Assembly (NCBI GenBank): GCA_905372785.1
Contig: CAJPQG010000002.1
Coordinates: 57,166-121,165 of the forward strand
Source: Candidatus Saccharimonadota bacterium
GTDB taxonomy: Bacteria > Patescibacteriota > Saccharimonadia > Saccharimonadales > Saccharimonadaceae
Length of the DNA stretch: 64,000 nt
Direction: 5' to 3'
The position numbers and the translations under genes were made by a program. Under the pieces are notes generated by a model, which did no database searches, was not told the origin of the DNA, and was given only the letters and a program-made list of their open reading frames with translations. Below, one piece after another: positions 7,196-54,657 of the stretch (positions within the stretch are counted from its first letter, which is position 1; every line of letters starts with the position of its first letter).

Positions 7196-8719
7196 ATGGA
7201 TACGAATAATTATCTCCGCAAAATCGGTAAAACTATTCAAGATAACCGCCAGGCCAAAGGCCTGACACAAGCGCAACTTGCAGAAAAATTGTGCACGAGC
7301 CAAAGCGCAATCAACCGCATCGAGAATGGTGGCCAAAACCTAAGCATCGAAATGGTAGCGCGCATTAGTGAAGTACTTTCTCGTGATATTGTGCGGCTAA
7401 ATAAGTCTGGTAAGATTAACTTTAAAGTTGAAGGTGGCCACGAGCTATCTGGTGAGATTGAGGTTAAAACAAGCAAGAATGCTGCAGTGGGGCTGCTTTG
7501 CGCAGCGCTGCTCAATAAGGGTCGCACCTTGCTCCGCCGCGTTGCTCGCATCGAAGAAGTAAATCGTATTATTGAAGTGCTTAATAGCATCGGTGTACGA
7601 ACCGTCTGGCACGAAGGCAACGACCTGGAAATCATCCCACCAAAAACGCTAGCACTCGACAAGATGGACGTTGCCGCTGCAAAGCGAACACGCACCGTTA
7701 TCATGTTCCTTGGGCCACTACTGCACCAGTACCCAGCCTTTACGCTGCCTTTTGCTGGCGGCTGCAACCTTGGTAAGCGCACCGTTGAACCACACCTCAC
7801 CGGGCTATCACCGTTTGGCATGAAGGTAGAAGCCCTTAGTGATCATTACGATGTAAAAACCACACCTCAGCGTGTTGATCGAGCAATTCTGCTGACTGAG
7901 CGTGGAGACACCGTTACTGAAAATGTCATTATGGCGGCGGCTGGCTACGATGGTACTACTATCATCCGCAATGCCAGCCCGAACTACATGGTACAGGATG
8001 TTTGTTTCTTCCTGGAAAAATTGGGCGTTAAAATCGAAGGAATTGGCACCACAACGCTAACTATTACTGGTAAGCCTCATATCGATGTAGACGTTGAATA
8101 CGCACCAAGCGAAGACCCAATTGAAGCAATGAGCTTTATTGCTGCGGGAGTCGTGACCAACTCAGAAATTACCATCCACCGAGTGCCAATTGAGTTCACC
8201 GAAATTGAGCTGTCTATTCTAGAAAATATGGGGCTACGCTACACACAAAGCCCTGAGTACAAGGCTCGCAATGGGCGAACTCGCCTGGTAGATATTACGC
8301 TACACAAGTCAAAGCTGGTAGCGCCAAAAGACAAGCTACACAGCATGCCATTCCCTGGCGTTAATATGGATAATCTTCCATTCCTTGGCTTGATTGCAAC
8401 TGCGGCCGAAGGACGAACACTCCTGCACGACTGGAGTTACGAAAACCGTGCAATCTACTTCACCGAGCTCACTAAACTAAATGCGAATATTGAACTTGTT
8501 GACCCGCACCGCGTGTACATCTCAGGTCCTACCAACTGGAAACCAGCAGACGTGGTTGCGCCTCCAGCACTCCGCCCAAGTGTTGTCATCTTACTAGCTA
8601 TGTTGGCAGCTCCTGGTGAGTCTATTCTACGAGATGTCTACTCGATTAACCGTGGCTACGAAGAATTGGCTGCACGCCTTAATACAATTGGTGCACACAT
8701 CACGACACTGGTTAACTAG
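7196..8719 (+). CDS. murA: Fusion protein: N-terminal XRE-family helix-turn-helix domain plus UDP-N-acetylglucosamine 1-carboxyvinyltransferase (MurA)
   Basis: Residues ~5-66 (GLTQAQLAEKLCTSQSAINRIENGGQNLSIEMVARI) form an HTH_3 motif. The rest aligns with MurA: KTSKNAA (Lys22 equivalent), the catalytic Cys in FAGGCNLGKRTVEPH, and C-terminal INRGYEELAARL. Confidence 0.85.
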   Translation: MDTNNYLRKIGKTIQDNRQAKGLTQAQLAEKLCTSQSAINRIENGGQNLSIEMVARISEVLSRDIVRLNKSGKINFKVEGGHELSGEIEVKTSKNAAVGLLCAALLNKGRTLLRRVARIEEVNRIIEVLNSIGVRTVWHEGNDLEIIPPKTLALDKMDVAAAKRTRTVIMFLGPLLHQYPAFTLPFAGGCNLGKRTVEPHLTGLSPFGMKVEALSDHYDVKTTPQRVDRAILLTERGDTVTENVIMAAAGYDGTTIIRNASPNYMVQDVCFFLEKLGVKIEGIGTTTLTITGKPHIDVDVEYAPSEDPIEAMSFIAAGVVTNSEITIHRVPIEFTEIELSILENMGLRYTQSPEYKARNGRTRLVDITLHKSKLVAPKDKLHSMPFPGVNMDNLPFLGLIATAAEGRTLLHDWSYENRAIYFTELTKLNANIELVDPHRVYISGPTNWKPADVVAPPALRPSVVILLAMLAAPGESILRDVYSINRGYEELAARLNTIGAHITTLVN

Positions 8720-50560: not shown

Positions 50561-51520
50561 TTAATCCCGTTTTAACATCACCGTAAACGCTTCACTCGGG
50601 ATATCCACCTTACCAAAACGTTTCATGCGCTGCTTGCCCTTGGCTTGTTTGGCTAGTAACTTCTTGCGGCGCGATACGTCGCCACCGTACAACTTGGCCG
50701 TTACATCTTTGCGGTAGGCACTAATGTCCTCACGAGCAATAAACTTACCACCGATTGCAGCTTGCAGGCTCACCTGGAAATTCTGGCGTGGCACCACTTC
50801 TTTCAGCTTCTTGACCACATCGCGCCCCAAAGACTGCGCCTCGCTGCGATGACACATGATACTCAGCGCATCAACCATTTCCCCGGCCACATAAAAATCC
50901 ACCCGCACTAAATCTTCCGGCTGATAGCCCTTTAGCTCATAATTAAACGAGCCATAACCACTGGTAACGCTCTTTAGCTGGTCGTAAAAGTCAGTCAATA
51001 AATTGGCAAGCGGCGCTGTAAACGATATCAAAGCGCGCTCGTCGATATAGCTAATATTATTCTGTAGCCCGCGCTTAGCAACGATCAACTGAATAACCGC
51101 CCCAATATATTCTTGCGGCACCACAATCTCACCATTGATCCACGGCTCCCGAATTTGGGTAATTTTTGTAACAGGCGGCAAGTCTGCAGCAGATTTAATG
51201 TCCTGCTCACTGCCGTCCGTCATGGTTACTTTATAGTCGGTGCTTGGGTTCGTCACCACAAGATCAAGATTATACTCACGCTCCAGCCGCTCTCGGATAA
51301 TATCCATGTGCAGTAGGCCCAAAAAGCCAATTCGCACACCAAAACCAAGCACTGGTGAATTCTCTGGCTCAAACTGTAAAGCGCTATCGCTTAAACTAAG
51401 CTTTTCAATCGCGTCTTTCAGGTCTTGATAGTCTTCGTTGCTGACCGGAAAAAACCCAGCGTATACAAATGGCTGAATCTCTTTATACCCTGGCAGCGGC
51501 TCAAGTGGTAATTGTGACAT
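50561..51520 (-). CDS. lepA: C-terminal half of translation factor EF4/LepA (domains III-V and LepA_C) as a stand-alone ORF
   Basis: It starts MSQLPLEPLPGYKEIQPFVYAGFFPV.. and continues through LGFGVRIGFLGLLHMDIIRERLEREY and the C-terminal KLLAKQAKGKQRMK. Confidence 0.85.
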   Translation of the reverse strand: MSQLPLEPLPGYKEIQPFVYAGFFPVSNEDYQDLKDAIEKLSLSDSALQFEPENSPVLGFGVRIGFLGLLHMDIIRERLEREYNLDLVVTNPSTDYKVTMTDGSEQDIKSAADLPPVTKITQIREPWINGEIVVPQEYIGAVIQLIVAKRGLQNNISYIDERALISFTAPLANLLTDFYDQLKSVTSGYGSFNYELKGYQPEDLVRVDFYVAGEMVDALSIMCHRSEAQSLGRDVVKKLKEVVPRQNFQVSLQAAIGGKFIAREDISAYRKDVTAKLYGGDVSRRKKLLAKQAKGKQRMKRFGKVDIPSEAFTVMLKRD

Positions 51521-51682
51521 ATAGCTATACTATAGCGTGTTTTTGTGGGGGTGTACAGGCCGTGGGGTGGCAATCATTTGCGTAGCGCTCTATACTAACA
51601 AGCAGGTGTCCAGAACTTCTGACGTAACCAAAGACCGAACATACCTACCCTATCCATTTACTAGTTTATTTATGTTTGCACA

Positions 51683-52033
51683 ATGAACTCAGATACACTA
51701 ACACCACTATTCAATCAGCGTGACAAGCTTGTACTGGCACGTGAGATTATAGATTTATACTACGATGATCGATCTAACACACAAACCGTGGAGTCACTCA
51801 GTCGCATCTGCTTTACCCTTGCTCGACTATTTGAAACTACAAATGATATACGCACCATATGGGATGACTTATTCGATTTTTTTGACGAAAAATATATGGT
51901 CCTTGCAAGCGGTCAGCAGTGGGATGAGACGCGAGAAGCTCAAATCGATACGTTATTTGAACGATTGCAGCGTGATATATCACATCAGCAGCGCCGCATC
52001 TCTCAGTGCCGCGCCAACGCCACTACACCCTAA
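51683..52033 (+). CDS. Hypothetical 116-aa acidic helical protein (island cargo)
   Basis: The call rests on the ORF alone, with no recognisable motif. Confidence 0.4.
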   Translation: MNSDTLTPLFNQRDKLVLAREIIDLYYDDRSNTQTVESLSRICFTLARLFETTNDIRTIWDDLFDFFDEKYMVLASGQQWDETREAQIDTLFERLQRDISHQQRRISQCRANATTP

Positions 52034-52259
52034 CTCTGCTAGTGGCAATGTATTTTATACATCAACCTTTTGTGGTTTTAGGTAGTTTCTTGTATAATTA
52101 AGTTACTAGCTCACAAAATGCGTGGCGCACAGTTTTTGTCGCAGGCCTGCATCCCGTGGGCTTGGCTGCGTGTACTTTGAGAATATGGTTTTCTTAGTTA
52201 GAGAGAAAGCGTATTTTTCCATTTTGTGACGAGAGATAGAAAGGTTGTGAGTGATCACA

Positions 52260-53294
52260 ATGGGTAAGCGTAAAGAAGAAGTTTCTATTACGAACTTTGA
52301 TGTACTAGATAACATCAACAAACACCGTGATAGCAGCATCCCTCTTTTCTTAACGGCGTTTCGAGATAATAGGTCTCGCATGGGGACCATCGTGAATACG
52401 TCAGCACTCTACAGTGAGAAAGCCAAACTATGGTTTGTTCATCAGCAGTTTACTGAAGTATACCTGAAGTTTATCGAAGCGCATCGTCGCTACTGCAATA
52501 GCCCGTCAGACAATACAGATCCGGTTTTGAAAAAGTTTCTGTCGAAACTTAAGGAGCTTGCCGATCTGGAGTTCAACCAGCAGGTATGGCGATATGCTTG
52601 TTTCGATACTATATACAAGCAAACGCTCTATCTGCTGAATGGTCTCATCGGCGATAACAGCCGTCGAACACTTACTCCTGAAGAGATGGAAAACTACATC
52701 ATGACAGCCAAGGATATCTTGGCATCCGTCTCTAAACCGTTTTCAGAAGACGATATCCAAAAGGCTCTACAGCCAGTCGGCATCTATGGTGACACCACTA
52801 TCAATGTCATTGATGTCTGTCATGACCGAGATATTTGCTGCAAGTTCATCCTGGACAATAATCCTCCAAAAGACTGGAAGGAGCAATACCAGGATAACAA
52901 GGTAGTACAGGTTATTGGTGAAGCCTATGAACGTGGCCGTCCGACTAGCGAGTATATTGCCTGCGCACGAGCAGCACGGGAGCTTATGCTGTGGATCCAT
53001 GGTGTCGGATGCGAATACACCGTGTTCACTCCTCCCGCAGATATTCAGTATATCGACCCTCACGAAATCGGTGACTACGAATTAAGTGTCTCAATGGAAC
53101 TGGCGGATGGCGAACACGAAGTTTACTTCACGTTTAACGACATAGGATACCCGCGCAACAGCGAGGGTGAGTACACTATCGTTGCAGCAGCGCTTAACGT
53201 TCTATTAGCACTAGACAAGGGGTTCTACCAGAAGACACTCGAAAAGGGCCATTACCCTGGGTGCAACCCTCTTGAACTCATCTGTAACCAATAA
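52260..53294 (+). CDS. Hypothetical 344-aa protein (island cargo)
   Basis: It is a clean ORF with an AGAAAGG-type RBS upstream of the ATG at 52260, followed by a strong terminator. No motif is recognisable by eye. Confidence 0.55.
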   Translation: MGKRKEEVSITNFDVLDNINKHRDSSIPLFLTAFRDNRSRMGTIVNTSALYSEKAKLWFVHQQFTEVYLKFIEAHRRYCNSPSDNTDPVLKKFLSKLKELADLEFNQQVWRYACFDTIYKQTLYLLNGLIGDNSRRTLTPEEMENYIMTAKDILASVSKPFSEDDIQKALQPVGIYGDTTINVIDVCHDRDICCKFILDNNPPKDWKEQYQDNKVVQVIGEAYERGRPTSEYIACARAARELMLWIHGVGCEYTVFTPPADIQYIDPHEIGDYELSVSMELADGEHEVYFTFNDIGYPRNSEGEYTIVAAALNVLLALDKGFYQKTLEKGHYPGCNPLELICNQ

Positions 53295-53312
53295 CCATTA
53301 GTAACACAGCCA

Positions 53313-53353
53313 CCCCCCATTCACATTCATCTATGTGGATGGGGGCTTTTTAC
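53313..53353 (+). terminator. Rho-independent terminator after the 344-aa island gene
   Basis: The hairpin is ccccccattcaca..tgtggatggggg, followed by CTTTTTAC. Confidence 0.6.
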
Positions 53354-53416
53354 TTTTGTTATCAATCAGGCTGGCATGATATACTCTGCAGCAAGATCTA
53401 GAAACATAACACCACA

Positions 53417-53450
53417 GAAAAAGCACCTCATACGGAGGTGCTTTTATTTT
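53417..53450. terminator. Bidirectional hairpin terminator after the 89-aa island gene
   Basis: The sequence is AAAAA-gcacctc-atacg-gaggtgc-TTTTATTTT. Confidence 0.6.
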
Positions 53451-53463
53451 GCTGGCTCACCAG

Positions 53464-53733
53464 CTAGTTGACTGGCTTGTAGGTGGCGTGAAAAATATCC
53501 CGTTTAATGGTCCACACTTCGTTGCTGTTGCCGATAATCATATAATCCCCTTCTTCGAATTCGAAGCGACGGCCTTCCAAGGTGTCAATCGTTTTATTAT
53601 CAAAATCAAGACGCTCTTCATGCTCAAACAAATGCTTATTTTCTGGGATTAGCTCGATTGCATATGCCGGAATTGGCAACTTTACATACTGCGGAACACC
53701 AAGTTCTTTACAAATTTCTTTCGTGAGCTTCAT
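53464..53733 (-). CDS. Hypothetical 89-aa protein, possibly PGDYG-family (phage-associated small protein), translationally coupled to the LepA N-half
   Basis: Its ATG lies 3 nt after the LepA N-half stop codon. The C-terminal EGDYMIIGNSNEVWTIKRDIFHATYKPV resembles the PGDYG family signature as I recall it. Confidence 0.5.
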   Translation of the reverse strand: MKLTKEICKELGVPQYVKLPIPAYAIELIPENKHLFEHEERLDFDNKTIDTLEGRRFEFEEGDYMIIGNSNEVWTIKRDIFHATYKPVN

Positions 53734-53736
53734 GCG

Positions 53737-54657
53737 CTATCCTTTCTTTATATTCTCTGTTAACGTGACGGTATCCCCCACGCGGGCATCGCGCGTCGTG
53801 CGGAGGTTGGTGACAATATAGCCAATTTCCCCAGTCTCTAGCGCAGGATCGGGCTGCATACCGGGGCTTAAGTGGCCCACCTCGAGCGCCAGGCCGTGCG
53901 CCCCAGTAGCCATCATCGTAATATCGGCCCCTTTTGGAATATTGCCATCCACAACTCGCACGTACAGGATGACGCCGCGGTAATCATCATAATAACTATC
54001 AAAAATCAAAGCTCGCGTCGGGACTATAGCAACTCTGCCATCTAGCTGAGCGGCCTGCTCTGCTAGTGGTGAAACTGGCGCCGGAATACGCTCCACAATA
54101 GCCTGAAGCACCTGCGGTACATTATGGCCAGTTTTAGCTGAAATATGAATAATCTCATCTTCGCTGCACCCCAGCAGATTCATCACCTGCAGGCTAACGC
54201 GTGGCACATCTGCCGCTGGTAAATCCACCTTGTTAAGCACTGGAATAATTACTAAATCCTGCTCCATGGCAAGATATACATTAGCGAGCGTTTGCGCCTG
54301 GATACCCTGGCTGGCGTCCACCACAAGCACCGCACCCTCACAGGCCTGCAGGCTGCGCGATACTTCATAGCTAAAGTCCACGTGCCCTGGTGTATCAATG
54401 AGGTTAAGATCGTACATCCCCACCTCGGCCAGGCTGGCAGCAGTAGGTTCAGGCACGTAATTATACTGCATCCGCACCGGCGCAAGCTTAATTGTAATAC
54501 CCTTTTCACGCTCTAACTCCATACTGTCTAGCAGCTGCTGCTTCATATCACGCGTGGTAACTGTTCCGGTTAGCTCCATCATGCGGTCAGCCAAGGTGCT
54601 TTTACCGTGGTCGATATGGGCAATAATACAGAAATTACGAATGTGGTTTTTCATCAT
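53737..54657 (-). CDS. lepA: N-terminal half of EF4/LepA (GTPase domain + domain II) as a stand-alone ORF
   Basis: GTPase motifs are [26 protein letters not shown] and NKVDLP. The ORF ends ..[16 protein letters not shown]. Confidence 0.9.

What the first reader, a model, noticed from the sequence alone, without database searches (positions are those of the whole stretch)
51683..53733. The cargo of the lepA insert is three orphan genes in a convergent, self-terminated layout
The insert carries a 116-aa acidic helical protein and a 344-aa protein on the + strand, separated by a 217-nt spacer. Both run into a strong terminator at 53313-53353. An 89-aa protein on the - strand ends at a bidirectional terminator at 53417-53450. 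I cannot assign any family by eye to the two + strand proteins. The 89-aa protein has a C-terminal EGDY..G..E....K.DIF..TY pattern that resembles the phage-associated PGDYG family. Hand counts suggest lower GC than the flanks. A compact foreign module with no recombinase, sitting inside a housekeeping gene of a reduced epibiont genome, is where a toxin/immunity, anti-phage or host-interaction module could reside. That function is pure speculation.
Basis: inference. Interest (0 to 1): 0.7.

Follow-up and report, generated by a model that had tools for sequence, protein, structure and literature searches.

The report
Accessory-gene hotspot inside split lepA
In this oral Saccharibacteria genome the translation factor gene lepA is naturally encoded as two working halves, and the gap between them is a gene-swapping hotspot that here holds three unrelated accessory genes, one of which is a highly variable gene with nearly invariant flanks.

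Summary
The three ORFs, both terminators and a modestly lower GC (44.4% against 48.5%) are all there.

The interpretation needs revising in three ways.

1. lepA was not broken by a recent insert. In 50 of 58 related Saccharibacteria loci it is split at the same domain II/III linker. Both halves are under strong purifying selection (dN/dS 0.01-0.06). Together they tile the whole EF4 model. lepA-C usually has its own -10 box 7-13 nt before the ATG.

2. The gap holds 0 to more than 7 kb of mosaic cargo (99 gene clusters). There is evidence of recent transfer between lineages, with one breakpoint at the 3' end of lepA-N and lepA fragments left as scars inside the cargo.

3. The three genes are not one module.
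- **p89** belongs to a small-protein family found in streptococcal conjugative elements and prophages. It resembles PGDYG but scores below threshold.
- **p116** is lineage-specific and frameshifted in some strains.
- **p344** has no known family or fold. Its ORF sits between a ~170-nt promoter/leader and a ~80-nt terminator block. These blocks are 91-100% identical across loci whose ORFs share only 23-48% amino-acid identity. They occur at two chromosomal slots.

Function remains unknown. A role in conflict or host interaction is only inferred.

The parts
50561..51520 (-). lepA-C: EF4 domains III, V and the LepA C-terminal domain (319 aa). First gene of the lepA-C/gmk/hrcA/grpE run.
   Evidence: Pfam EFG_C and LepA_C. 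TIGR01393 positions 282-594 of 595, 440.7 bits. dN/dS 0.005-0.014.
51529..51557 (-). Promoter-like site of lepA-C (TGTACA-17-TATAGT). The -10 box ends 8 nt before the ATG, which predicts a leaderless or near-leaderless mRNA.
   Evidence: Promoter scan. 41 of 51 split loci have a TAnA[AT]T box ending 7-13 nt before the lepA-C start; this window and L001 have TATAGT at 8 nt.
51683..52033 (+). p116: acidic (pI 4.7), soluble protein restricted to this lineage. Always found next to lepA-C and transcribed away from it.
   Evidence: 8 homologues, 77-95% identical over the aligned part. Every contig that could be placed shows the same position next to lepA-C. dN/dS 0.18-0.38. Frameshifted in L092-L094. 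No family or PDB match.
52086..52259 (+). Conserved 5' block of the cassette slot: TATAAT -10 box, a ~150-nt leader predicted to be structured, and the ribosome-binding site.
   Evidence: 91-97% identical across loci whose downstream ORFs share 23-48% amino-acid identity. RNA fold -49 kcal/mol, z -2.4. Two one-sided changes keep pairing; no covariation. No Rfam match.
52260..53294 (+). p344: allele A1 of a hypervariable orphan protein family found only in Saccharibacteria-like contigs (344 aa, soluble, mostly helical).
   Evidence: Only 2 hits among 5.8 billion proteins and 4 more full-length members among 1.84 billion representatives. No Pfam, PHROG, PADLOC or NCBIfam family. AlphaFold2 pLDDT 71, pTM 0.70, with no Foldseek match in PDB or BFVD. 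In L001 it is replaced exactly, from 52247 to 53305.
53304..53385 (+). Conserved 3' block of the cassette slot: terminator T1 (53314-53353), then a relic of the promoter that drives the response-regulator gene at the second slot (TTGTTA-18-TATACT, 53356-53385).
   Evidence: The first 48 nt from the T1 hairpin are 92-100% identical across alleles. The wider ~80-nt block is 88-94% identical to L088, L096 and L095. Scan hits.
53419..53445 (.). Bidirectional terminator T2. It ends the lepA-N/p89 transcript on the - strand and anything coming from the relic promoter on the + strand.
   Evidence: L081 and L090 lack the ~75-nt segment between T1 and the 3' end of p89, which includes T2.
53464..53733 (-). 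p89: small protein of a family found in Firmicutes conjugative elements and prophages. Its start lies 4 nt after the lepA-N stop.
   Evidence: 26 homologues. Found in a Streptococcus ferus ICE-like region and a Tn916-like element and in Streptococcus prophages. phrog_419 E 2.8e-9. PGDYG match below threshold. dN/dS 0.02.
53737..54657 (-). lepA-N: EF4 GTPase domain and domain II (306 aa), directly downstream of murJ.
   Evidence: Pfam GTP_EFTU and GTP_EFTU_D2. TIGR01393 positions 2-278, 392.8 bits. dN/dS 0.06.

Best explanation
lepA (EF4) in this group of Saccharibacteria is made from two separately encoded polypeptides. It is cut in the short linker between domains II and III. lepA-N ends the ftsH-murJ-lepA-N run. 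lepA-C starts its own transcript from a -10 box a few bases before its ATG.

The space between the halves is a hotspot for accessory genes. Because both halves are highly conserved, incoming DNA taken up by natural transformation can recombine within them. Cargo is therefore replaced or nested without any dedicated recombinase. That mechanism is inferred.

In this strain the gap holds three independently acquired genes.
- p89 is a small protein derived from a conjugative-element or prophage family and is probably co-transcribed with lepA-N.
- p116 is a dispensable lineage-specific acidic protein.
- p344 is one allele of a hypervariable ORF. It sits in an expression slot made of a conserved promoter/leader and a conserved terminator block.

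The same slot exists at a second chromosomal site, upstream of a two-component operon. The conserved blocks probably act as short homology arms that let very divergent ORFs, or a 51-55-aa ORF, be swapped between strains and perhaps between slots. Old, very divergent alleles kept in near-identical flanks suggest balancing or diversifying selection, as seen for genes involved in conflict with phages, hosts or competitors. That last step, and any biochemical function, is inference only.
For: Split lepA.
- 50 of 58 loci are split at the same residue, with gaps from 3 nt to 7.3 kb; 8 are contiguous.
- The two halves tile TIGR01393 positions 2-278 and 282-594.
- dN/dS is 0.06 for lepA-N and 0.005-0.014 for lepA-C.
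- A -10 box lies 7-13 nt before the lepA-C ATG in 41 of 51 split loci. The short-gap loci have a Shine-Dalgarno sequence instead.

Hotspot.
- 291 ORFs fall into 99 clusters arranged in mosaic order.
- They include NUDIX, MazG/dUTPase-like, SDR, GrpB, DUF218, SWEET, DUF6994, T5orf172 and a PolyA_pol+SLFN protein.
- Cargo genes are 97-100% identical between genomes whose LepA-N is 81-87% identical.
- L012 and L041 jump from 50-85% to 98-100% nucleotide identity at the 3' end of lepA-N.
- Fragments of the lepA-N tail or lepA-C head lie inside the cargo of 6 loci.
- The window insert has no bounding repeats.
- Natural transformation with ~1-kb homology arms has been shown in Saccharibacteria (PMC10633639).

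Independent histories of the three genes.

Cassette.
- Flanks are 91-100% identical while ORFs share 23-48% amino-acid identity.
- L088 and L096 are 90-98% identical in the flanks and 48-81% per 100-nt window (mostly 50-65%) across the ORF.
- Short contigs break inside the conserved flanks.
- Slot A and slot B contigs in one metagenome have the same coverage.
Against: - There is no expression or protein data. That the two EF4 halves associate and function is inferred from sequence constraint alone.
- The LepA-C neighbour-joining tree intermixes split and contiguous forms. A single origin is therefore not shown.
- Recombination within the lepA halves is directly visible in only a few locus pairs.
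- The window's own insert shows no lepA scars.
- That slot A and slot B lie in one genome is inferred from equal coverage and from hybrid contigs, which could be assembly chimeras.
- The leader could instead be conserved because it is a functional RNA rather than a recombination arm.
- No family, fold or genomic context points to a function for p344 or p116.
Confidence: 0.7

Rival explanations
1. The three genes form one functional module (toxin/immunity, anti-phage or host-interaction) that arrived as a unit.
For: The layout is compact, convergent and self-terminated, and GC is lower than in the flanks. p89 comes from a mobile-element family.
Against: - The three genes are present, absent or varied independently of one another in near-identical backgrounds.
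- p344 family members at the second slot have neither p116 nor p89 beside them.
- p89 homologues in ICEs and prophages have no p116 or p344 neighbours.
- There are no reproducible PADLOC hits.
Confidence: 0.07
2. The block is the decayed remnant of an integrated mobile element (ICE, prophage or a free-standing homing-endonuclease gene) that split lepA.
For: - p89 belongs to an ICE/prophage family.
- A T5orf172/MUG113 gene (related to the GIY-YIG nuclease superfamily, from general knowledge) lies 23 nt after lepA-N in nine other loci. It is 95-100% identical across lineages.
- A homing-endonuclease gene splitting a gene into functional pieces has a precedent in phage Aeh1 nrdA/mobE (own knowledge).
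Against: - The window has no integrase, no att-like repeats and no endonuclease domain.
- p116 and p344 have homologues only in Saccharibacteria-like contigs.
- No viral contigs carry p344, p89 or the leader.
- The split predates this cargo, because it is shared by lineages with entirely different cargo.
Confidence: 0.13
3. The conserved flanks of p344 are conserved because they are functional RNA and terminator elements under purifying selection. The ORFs simply evolve very fast in place, with no cassette exchange.
For: The leader is predicted to fold (-49 kcal/mol, z -2.4). Its two hairpin substitutions preserve pairing, and an indel falls in the loop. The same leader precedes two unrelated ORF types.
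Against: - Synonymous sites between alleles are saturated (dS about 2-2.5) while the flanks differ by 0-9%.
- In L001 the replacement by an unrelated 55-aa ORF is exact at the ORF borders.
- The same flanks occur at two different chromosomal sites.
- Alleles and the neighbouring hypervariable gene reassort freely.
- There is no Rfam family.
Confidence: 0.1

Closest known systems
Replacement-type flexible genomic islands between conserved core genes, such as the pneumococcal capsule locus between dexB and aliA (own knowledge)
   Same: Variable cargo lies between highly conserved flanks. There is no dedicated recombinase. Exchange is by homologous recombination in a naturally transformable organism. 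Gene content is mosaic across strains (PMC10633639).
   Different: Here the two flanks are the halves of a single translation-factor gene. The cargo is functionally heterogeneous rather than one pathway.
Genes in pieces: the split protein genes of Nanoarchaeum equitans, and phage Aeh1 nrdA split by the mobE homing-endonuclease gene (own knowledge)
   Same: A conserved housekeeping protein is encoded as two ORFs cut at a domain boundary, with both pieces kept under selection. This is another ultrasmall episymbiont. In some relatives a nuclease-like gene sits in the gap.
   Different: There is no split intein; the tails are only about 5-8 residues. The halves are separated by 0 to more than 7 kb of unrelated genes. 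No endonuclease is present in this window. Reassembly of the two pieces is untested.
Genes with conserved ends or flanks and hypervariable centres, maintained by recombination and balancing selection (for example flagellin fliC, and tailocin tail fibres as in PMC13195805)
   Same: Near-identical flanks and conserved N- and C-terminal motifs enclose very divergent allele classes. The least confident and most indel-rich part of the model is residues 248-299.
   Different: p344 has no signal peptide, membrane segment or known fold. The whole ORF can be replaced by an unrelated 55-aa ORF. The slot is duplicated at two chromosomal sites.
Integron gene cassettes
   Same: One ORF per unit, with a conserved element after the ORF, exchangeable content and an external promoter.
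   Different: No integrase was seen in any locus examined. The 3' element is conserved in sequence and is a GC-rich terminator hairpin, without the attC core sites (by inspection). The promoter and leader are part of the conserved unit.
PGDYG protein family (PF14083) and phrog_419
   Same: The C-terminal 30 residues of p89 align to PGDYG positions 5-34. Several homologues carry PGDY. The family is associated with mobile elements.
   Different: The score is below the gathering threshold and covers only about 30 of 102 model positions. The window protein reads EGDYM.

Membership tests
Elongation factor 4 / LepA (TIGR01393), as a two-piece protein | Full-length match to the equivalog model at or above 533.9 bits | tested here: not met
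   Each half alone is below the cut-off (392.8 and 440.7 bits). Together they tile positions 2-278 and 282-594 of 595. This is a complete EF4 in two ORFs, not a single-chain member.
Functional gene fission (as opposed to a pseudogene) | Both pieces under purifying selection, and the arrangement conserved across species | tested here: met
   dN/dS 0.06 and 0.005-0.014. The split occurs at the same residue in 50 of 58 loci, including RefSeq Nanosynbacter strains L031, L040 and L051.
Functional gene fission (as opposed to a pseudogene) | The downstream piece has its own transcription and translation start | tested here: met
   An ATG with a -10 box 7-13 nt upstream in 41 of 51 split loci, plus TATAGT in the window and L001. 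This is a sequence prediction only.
Functional gene fission (as opposed to a pseudogene) | The two polypeptides are made and act together on the ribosome | not testable with these tools
   Needs proteomics and biochemistry.
Recombination-driven flexible island or hotspot | Content varies between close relatives while the flanks are conserved | tested here: met
   99 cargo clusters and gaps of 3 nt to 7.3 kb. L001 differs from the window only in the p344 slot.
Recombination-driven flexible island or hotspot | Recombination breakpoints lie in the conserved flanks, and cargo is younger than the flanks | tested here: met
   The L012/L041 identity jump at the lepA-N 3' end. Cargo 97-100% identical against LepA-N 81-87%. 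lepA fragment scars. This is shown for other loci, not for the window's own cargo.
PGDYG (PF14083), for p89 | HMM score at or above the 27-bit gathering threshold across the domain | tested here: not met
   18.2 bits, E 0.0034, model positions 5-34 of 102 only. 9 of 13 homologues hit below threshold.
Known anti-phage defence or toxin-antitoxin systems (PADLOC-DB 2.0) | A significant match of any of the three proteins to a system component | tested here: not met
   No hits for p116 or p89. For p344 only HEase at E 0.006, seen in 1 of 7 family members.
Homing endonuclease or mobile element (integrase, transposase, terminal repeats) | A nuclease or recombinase domain, or bounding repeats | tested here: not met
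   No Pfam domain in p116 or p344. No direct or terminal inverted repeats bound the insert.
Integron cassette | An attC site after the ORF and an IntI integrase nearby | tested here: not met
   The 3' element is a sequence-conserved terminator hairpin. No integrase in the window region or in the slot B loci. The attC check was by inspection only.
Described structured RNA (Rfam 15), for the 150-nt leader | A match to any covariance model | tested here: not met
   No match at E up to 1 in 51400-53900. Only tRNAs in the whole window.

The most novel reading that the evidence does not exclude
The conserved promoter/leader and terminator blocks define a recombinase-free cassette system that works like an integron. 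It would have at least two chromosomal expression slots, one in the lepA gap and one upstream of a two-component operon. Saccharibacteria would use natural transformation and short-arm homologous recombination to swap very divergent orphan ORFs in and out of these slots. The p344 family would be a strain-specificity determinant in conflict with hosts, phages or rival epibionts. The split lepA itself would spread horizontally as a self-propagating landing pad.
Probability: 0.2. Interest if true: 0.8.

Novelty: new variant of a known kind. Interest (0 to 1): 0.6.

Why it matters
1. **Genome annotation and quality scoring.** lepA is used as a single-copy marker; to my knowledge TIGR01393 is in the GTDB bacterial marker set. 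Each half here falls below the equivalog cut-off. Split lepA can therefore be mis-scored as missing, fragmented or a pseudogene in Saccharibacteria genomes.

2. **Translation biology.** A naturally two-piece EF4, cut between the domain I-II block and the domain III-V block, is a ready-made system for asking how translational GTPases couple their two halves.

3. **Genetic tools.** The gap tolerates 0 to more than 7 kb of foreign genes and is flanked by very conserved arms. That makes it a candidate universal landing pad for engineering Saccharibacteria by natural transformation (PMC10633639).

4. **Finding conflict genes.** ORF-precise hypervariable genes with near-identical flanks (p344 and at least two others) mark the loci most likely to be involved in strain-level conflict or host specificity. 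In this group about half of the proteins have no known function, so such markers are useful.

Tried and rejected
**Family searches.** Pfam, PHROGs, PADLOC and NCBIfam on the three proteins gave nothing usable. The exceptions were phrog_419 and a below-threshold PGDYG match for p89.

**The HEase hit for p344.** It was rejected because it occurs in only 1 of 7 family members.

**Structure of p344.**
- The first AlphaFold2 run, with 3 sequences, was unusable (pLDDT 41).
- The second, with 7 sequences, reached pLDDT 71.
- Foldseek found no match at E <= 0.001 in PDB or BFVD.
- PDB sequence searches were negative.

**The leader.**
- There is no Rfam family.
- The alignment is too conserved to show covariation.
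- A 20-aa upstream ORF (MRGAQFLSQACIPWAWLRVL) was considered as an attenuator peptide. It was rejected because 1-nt indels break its frame in L088, L096 and L090.

**Viral origin.** Neither the leader, p344 nor p89 was found in IMG/VR contigs. p89 has no plasmid hits.

**Transposon-like ends.** No bounding repeats were found.

**Relatedness among neighbours.** p116, the 230-aa slot B neighbour and p344 show no similarity to one another.

**Single origin of the split.** The LepA-C neighbour-joining tree is too weakly resolved or too recombinant to decide. The shared KKYF-type LepA-N tail in most split forms hints at common ancestry.

**Literature.** No paper describing split lepA in Saccharibacteria was found in the searchable library.
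Full report
**What is at the coordinates**

The window comes from an oral Saccharibacteria (TM7) genome. The closest public contig is JABCOR020000011.1 (locus L001), with 98% LepA-N identity.

The minus strand carries, in order:
- ftsH, murJ and lepA-N (54657-53737)
- p89 (53733-53464)
- after a 1.9-kb gap, lepA-C (51520-50561), gmk, hrcA and grpE

The plus strand of the gap carries p116 (51683-52033) and a long ORF. Homologues fix the true start of that ORF at ATG 52260, giving 344 aa.

- **Terminators.** T1 (53314-53345 plus a T-run) and the bidirectional T2 (53419-53445) are both found by the scan.
- **GC.** The insert is 44.4% GC against 48.5% for the window. Only 1.7% of same-size windows are as low.
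- **Solubility.** All three proteins are acidic and soluble.
- **Selection.** All three evolve under purifying selection.

**lepA is a conserved two-piece gene, not a gene broken by this block**

I fetched 80 related genome loci using LepA-N as the query. Of the 58 in which both halves could be placed, 50 are split at the same position and 8 are contiguous.
- Split forms end LepA-N at ...VGDTVTL(K/R)KY.. and start LepA-C at M-x(3-6)-QPLPGYKE.
- Contiguous forms read ...VGDTVT-x(6-8)-PLPGYK.

The cut therefore lies in the short linker between domains II and III.

The window halves match TIGR01393 positions 2-278 and 282-594 of 595. Each alone is below the curated cut-off.

Against L001, dN/dS is 0.06 for lepA-N and 0.012 for lepA-C, at dS of about 0.22.

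In 41 of 51 split loci a TAnA[AT]T box ends 7-13 nt before the lepA-C ATG. The window and L001 have TATAGT at 8 nt. This predicts a leaderless or near-leaderless transcript.

Loci with short gaps (L061, L052, L065) use overlapping stop/start codons or a Shine-Dalgarno sequence instead. They look like intermediate stages.

The extra tails are too short for split inteins. The product must be two polypeptides. That they work together is inferred from the sequence constraint and has not been shown.

**The gap is an accessory-gene hotspot**

Gap length ranges from 3 nt to 7.3 kb. The 291 ORFs in the gaps fall into 99 clusters arranged in mosaic combinations, mostly co-directional with lepA.

Annotated examples:
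- three NUDIX families and a MazG/dUTPase-like protein
- DUF218, a SWEET-type transporter and DUF6994
- GrpB, peptidase S51 and an SDR
- a T5orf172/MUG113 protein
- a 950-aa PolyA_pol plus Schlafen/AlbA_2 protein

Evidence for recent exchange:
- Several cargo genes are 97-100% identical between genomes whose LepA-N is only 81-87% identical.
- Between L012 and L041, nucleotide identity is 50-85% through lepA-N. It jumps to 98-100% exactly at the lepA-N 3' end and stays there for 3 kb.
- Six loci carry fragments of the LepA-N tail or LepA-C head inside their cargo. These are the scars expected from nested recombination anchored in lepA.

Saccharibacteria are naturally transformable and integrate DNA through ~1-kb homology arms (PMC10633639). 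The window insert has no recombinase and no bounding repeats. The most economical mechanism is therefore homologous, or homology-facilitated, recombination using the lepA halves as arms. This is an inference. It is demonstrated for other loci, not for the window's own cargo.

**The three genes are not one module**

| Locus or group | p116 | Slot content | p89 |
|---|---|---|---|
| Window | intact | p344 allele A1 | present |
| L001 (94% nt identity on both sides) | 92% identical | 319 bp with a 55-aa acidic ORF replaces 52247-53305 | 99% identical |
| L090, L092, L101, L102 | present | variants of the small ORF | called in L092 and L101; not called in L090; no full-length ORF in L102 |
| L092-L094 | frameshifted | small ORF | present in L092 |
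| L081 | absent (slot B-type 5' flank) | p344 allele, 47% identical | 95% identical at nt level |

None of the other 79 genome loci has any of the three genes.

**p89**

It has 26 homologues.
- One lies in a Streptococcus ferus ICE-like region, beside DNA methylase, RepA_N, SSB and TrbL genes.
- One lies in a Tn916-like element with TcpC, TcpE, a VirB4-like ATPase, CHAP, DUF3850, DUF771 and an integrase.
- More distant relatives (34-44% identity) lie in the early region of Streptococcus prophages, next to SSB in Javan214.

It matches phrog_419 (E 2.8e-9). Its last 30 residues match PGDYG below threshold, as do those of 9 of 13 homologues.

It starts 4 nt after the lepA-N stop and is very constrained (dN/dS 0.02).

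It is best read as a small protein acquired from a mobile element and retained by this lineage. Its biochemical function is unknown.

**p116**

All 8 homologues are 77-95% identical over the aligned part. Every contig that could be placed shows the same position next to lepA-C. No family or structure match exists. Moderate constraint and frameshifted copies suggest it is a dispensable gene.

**p344 and its cassette slot**

p344 has only two homologues in the 5.8-billion-protein collection, at 94% and 47% identity. A profile search of 1.84 billion representatives adds four full-length members at 27-33% identity, a truncated fragment (P0037) and one spurious immunoglobulin-repeat hit.

No Pfam, PHROG, PADLOC or NCBIfam family fits.

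An AlphaFold2 model built from seven sequences (pLDDT 71, pTM 0.70) shows:
- long N-terminal helices
- a small alpha/beta part
- a low-confidence, indel-rich region at residues 248-299
- C-terminal helices

It has no Foldseek match in PDB or BFVD.

The unexpected result concerns the flanks.
- About 170 nt upstream (52086-52259: the -10 box, a ~150-nt leader and the ribosome-binding site) is 91-97% identical in every locus that carries a family member.
- About 80 nt downstream (53304-53385) is 88-100% identical, with the first 48 nt from the T1 hairpin at 92-100%.
- The ORFs themselves share only 23-48% amino-acid identity and 54-67% nucleotide identity.
- Synonymous sites between alleles are saturated, with dS about 2.

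The slot exists at two chromosomal sites.
- **Slot A** is the lepA gap (window, L082, L095, and the small-ORF strains).
- **Slot B** lies between a hypervariable 230-aa gene plus an ABC transporter on one side and a response-regulator/histidine-kinase operon on the other (L088, L096, L099, L103).

The 3' block contains T1 followed by the promoter that drives the response regulator in slot B. The window keeps that promoter as a relic (53356-53385), followed by T2. This points to a duplication of the slot from one site to the other.

Further observations on the slots:
- L088 and L096 are 90-98% identical in the flanks. Across the ORF they are 48-81% per 100-nt window, mostly 50-65%.
- Many contigs carrying these genes are only 1.1-1.9 kb long and break inside the conserved blocks. 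That is expected when several alleles share flanks within one population.
- In metagenome ERZ1033837 the slot A and slot B contigs have coverage 3.09 and 3.28.

**The leader**

It is predicted to fold (-49 kcal/mol, z -2.4). Its two substitutions in the central hairpin preserve pairing (GU to AU, UG to CG), and an indel falls in the loop. There is no true covariation and no Rfam match.

**How it most likely works**

Shown:
- a conserved two-gene EF4
- a variable gap with recent horizontal exchange
- three genes with independent histories
- an ORF slot with near-invariant flanks at two sites

Inferred:
- Cargo turnover uses RecA-type recombination after natural transformation, with the lepA halves (about 0.9 kb each) and the cassette blocks (about 170 and 80 nt) as homology arms.
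- The p344 family is kept diverse by balancing or diversifying selection, which would fit a role in conflict or partner specificity.

I put about 0.7 on the structural and evolutionary account. I put no more than 0.2 on any specific functional class for p344.

**Comparison with known systems and novelty**

The closest known kinds are:
- replacement-type flexible genomic islands between conserved core genes
- genes in pieces, such as the split genes of Nanoarchaeum and Aeh1 nrdA/mobE
- variable-centre genes maintained by recombination

None of them combines a split translation factor used as island flanks with a duplicated ORF slot that has sequence-invariant expression signals.

I found no description of split lepA in Saccharibacteria in the searchable literature. 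A recent survey lists lepA simply as retained in CPR bacteria (PMC12641178).

I rate it a new variant of a known kind, with interest 0.6.

Noticed in passing
L081 1-1940 and L100 1-1914: These two contigs carry reciprocal hybrid junctions. L081 has the slot B 5' flank (the 230-aa gene), then p344 allele A2, then the slot A 3' flank (p89). L100 has the slot A 5' flank (lepA-C, p116), then the 55-aa ORF, then the slot B 3' flank (the response-regulator gene). This could be a real chromosomal inversion by recombination between the two slots, or chimeric low-coverage assemblies.
   Followed up: partly
L088 6941-7645 and 11968-12672 (against L096 4966-5655 and 9985-10668): Two more orphan genes differ greatly between genomes whose flanking DNA is 92-100% identical (52% and 34% amino-acid identity). 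The divergence stops at the ORF borders. p344 is therefore one example of a recurrent pattern in this lineage.
   Followed up: partly
L033 8992-9600, L067 9079-9687 and seven other loci: A T5orf172/MUG113 gene (related to the GIY-YIG nuclease superfamily, from general knowledge) starts 23 nt after the lepA-N stop. It is 95-100% identical across lineages whose LepA-N is 85-87% identical. It is a candidate homing-type element that might have created or spread the split.
   Followed up: partly
L012 9070-11922 and L041 9073-11925: A 950-aa protein combining a PolyA_pol/CCA-type nucleotidyltransferase with a Schlafen/AlbA_2 domain was transferred recently between lineages. It is 98-100% identical at nucleotide level, against about 65% for the background. 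In L012 the transfer left a partial lepA-C head and lepA-N tail as a scar.
   Followed up: partly
window 52119-52181: The leader contains a 20-codon upstream ORF (MRGAQFLSQACIPWAWLRVL). Its frame is broken by 1-nt indels in other copies, so it is probably not a leader peptide.
   Followed up: yes
window 53356-53385: A promoter-like site (TTGTTA-18-TATACT, with TG) points at the 3' end of p89 and is stopped by T2 about 35-60 nt later. It is homologous to the response-regulator promoter of slot B. It could produce a short antisense or orphan transcript.
   Followed up: partly
L061 about 8247-8262: In this MAG, lepA-N and lepA-C are split with overlapping stop and start codons (ATGA) and no cargo. 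This is either the minimal form of the split or a frameshift error in the assembly.
   Followed up: no
L001 9497-9664 (-), L090 5549-5716, L092 5615-5770, L102 after 8961: The 51-55-aa acidic ORF (MEDLDPRNREW...) that fills slot A in most strains is itself quite variable between strains whose lepA-C is 99% identical at protein level. It has only chance-level Pfam hits.
   Followed up: partly
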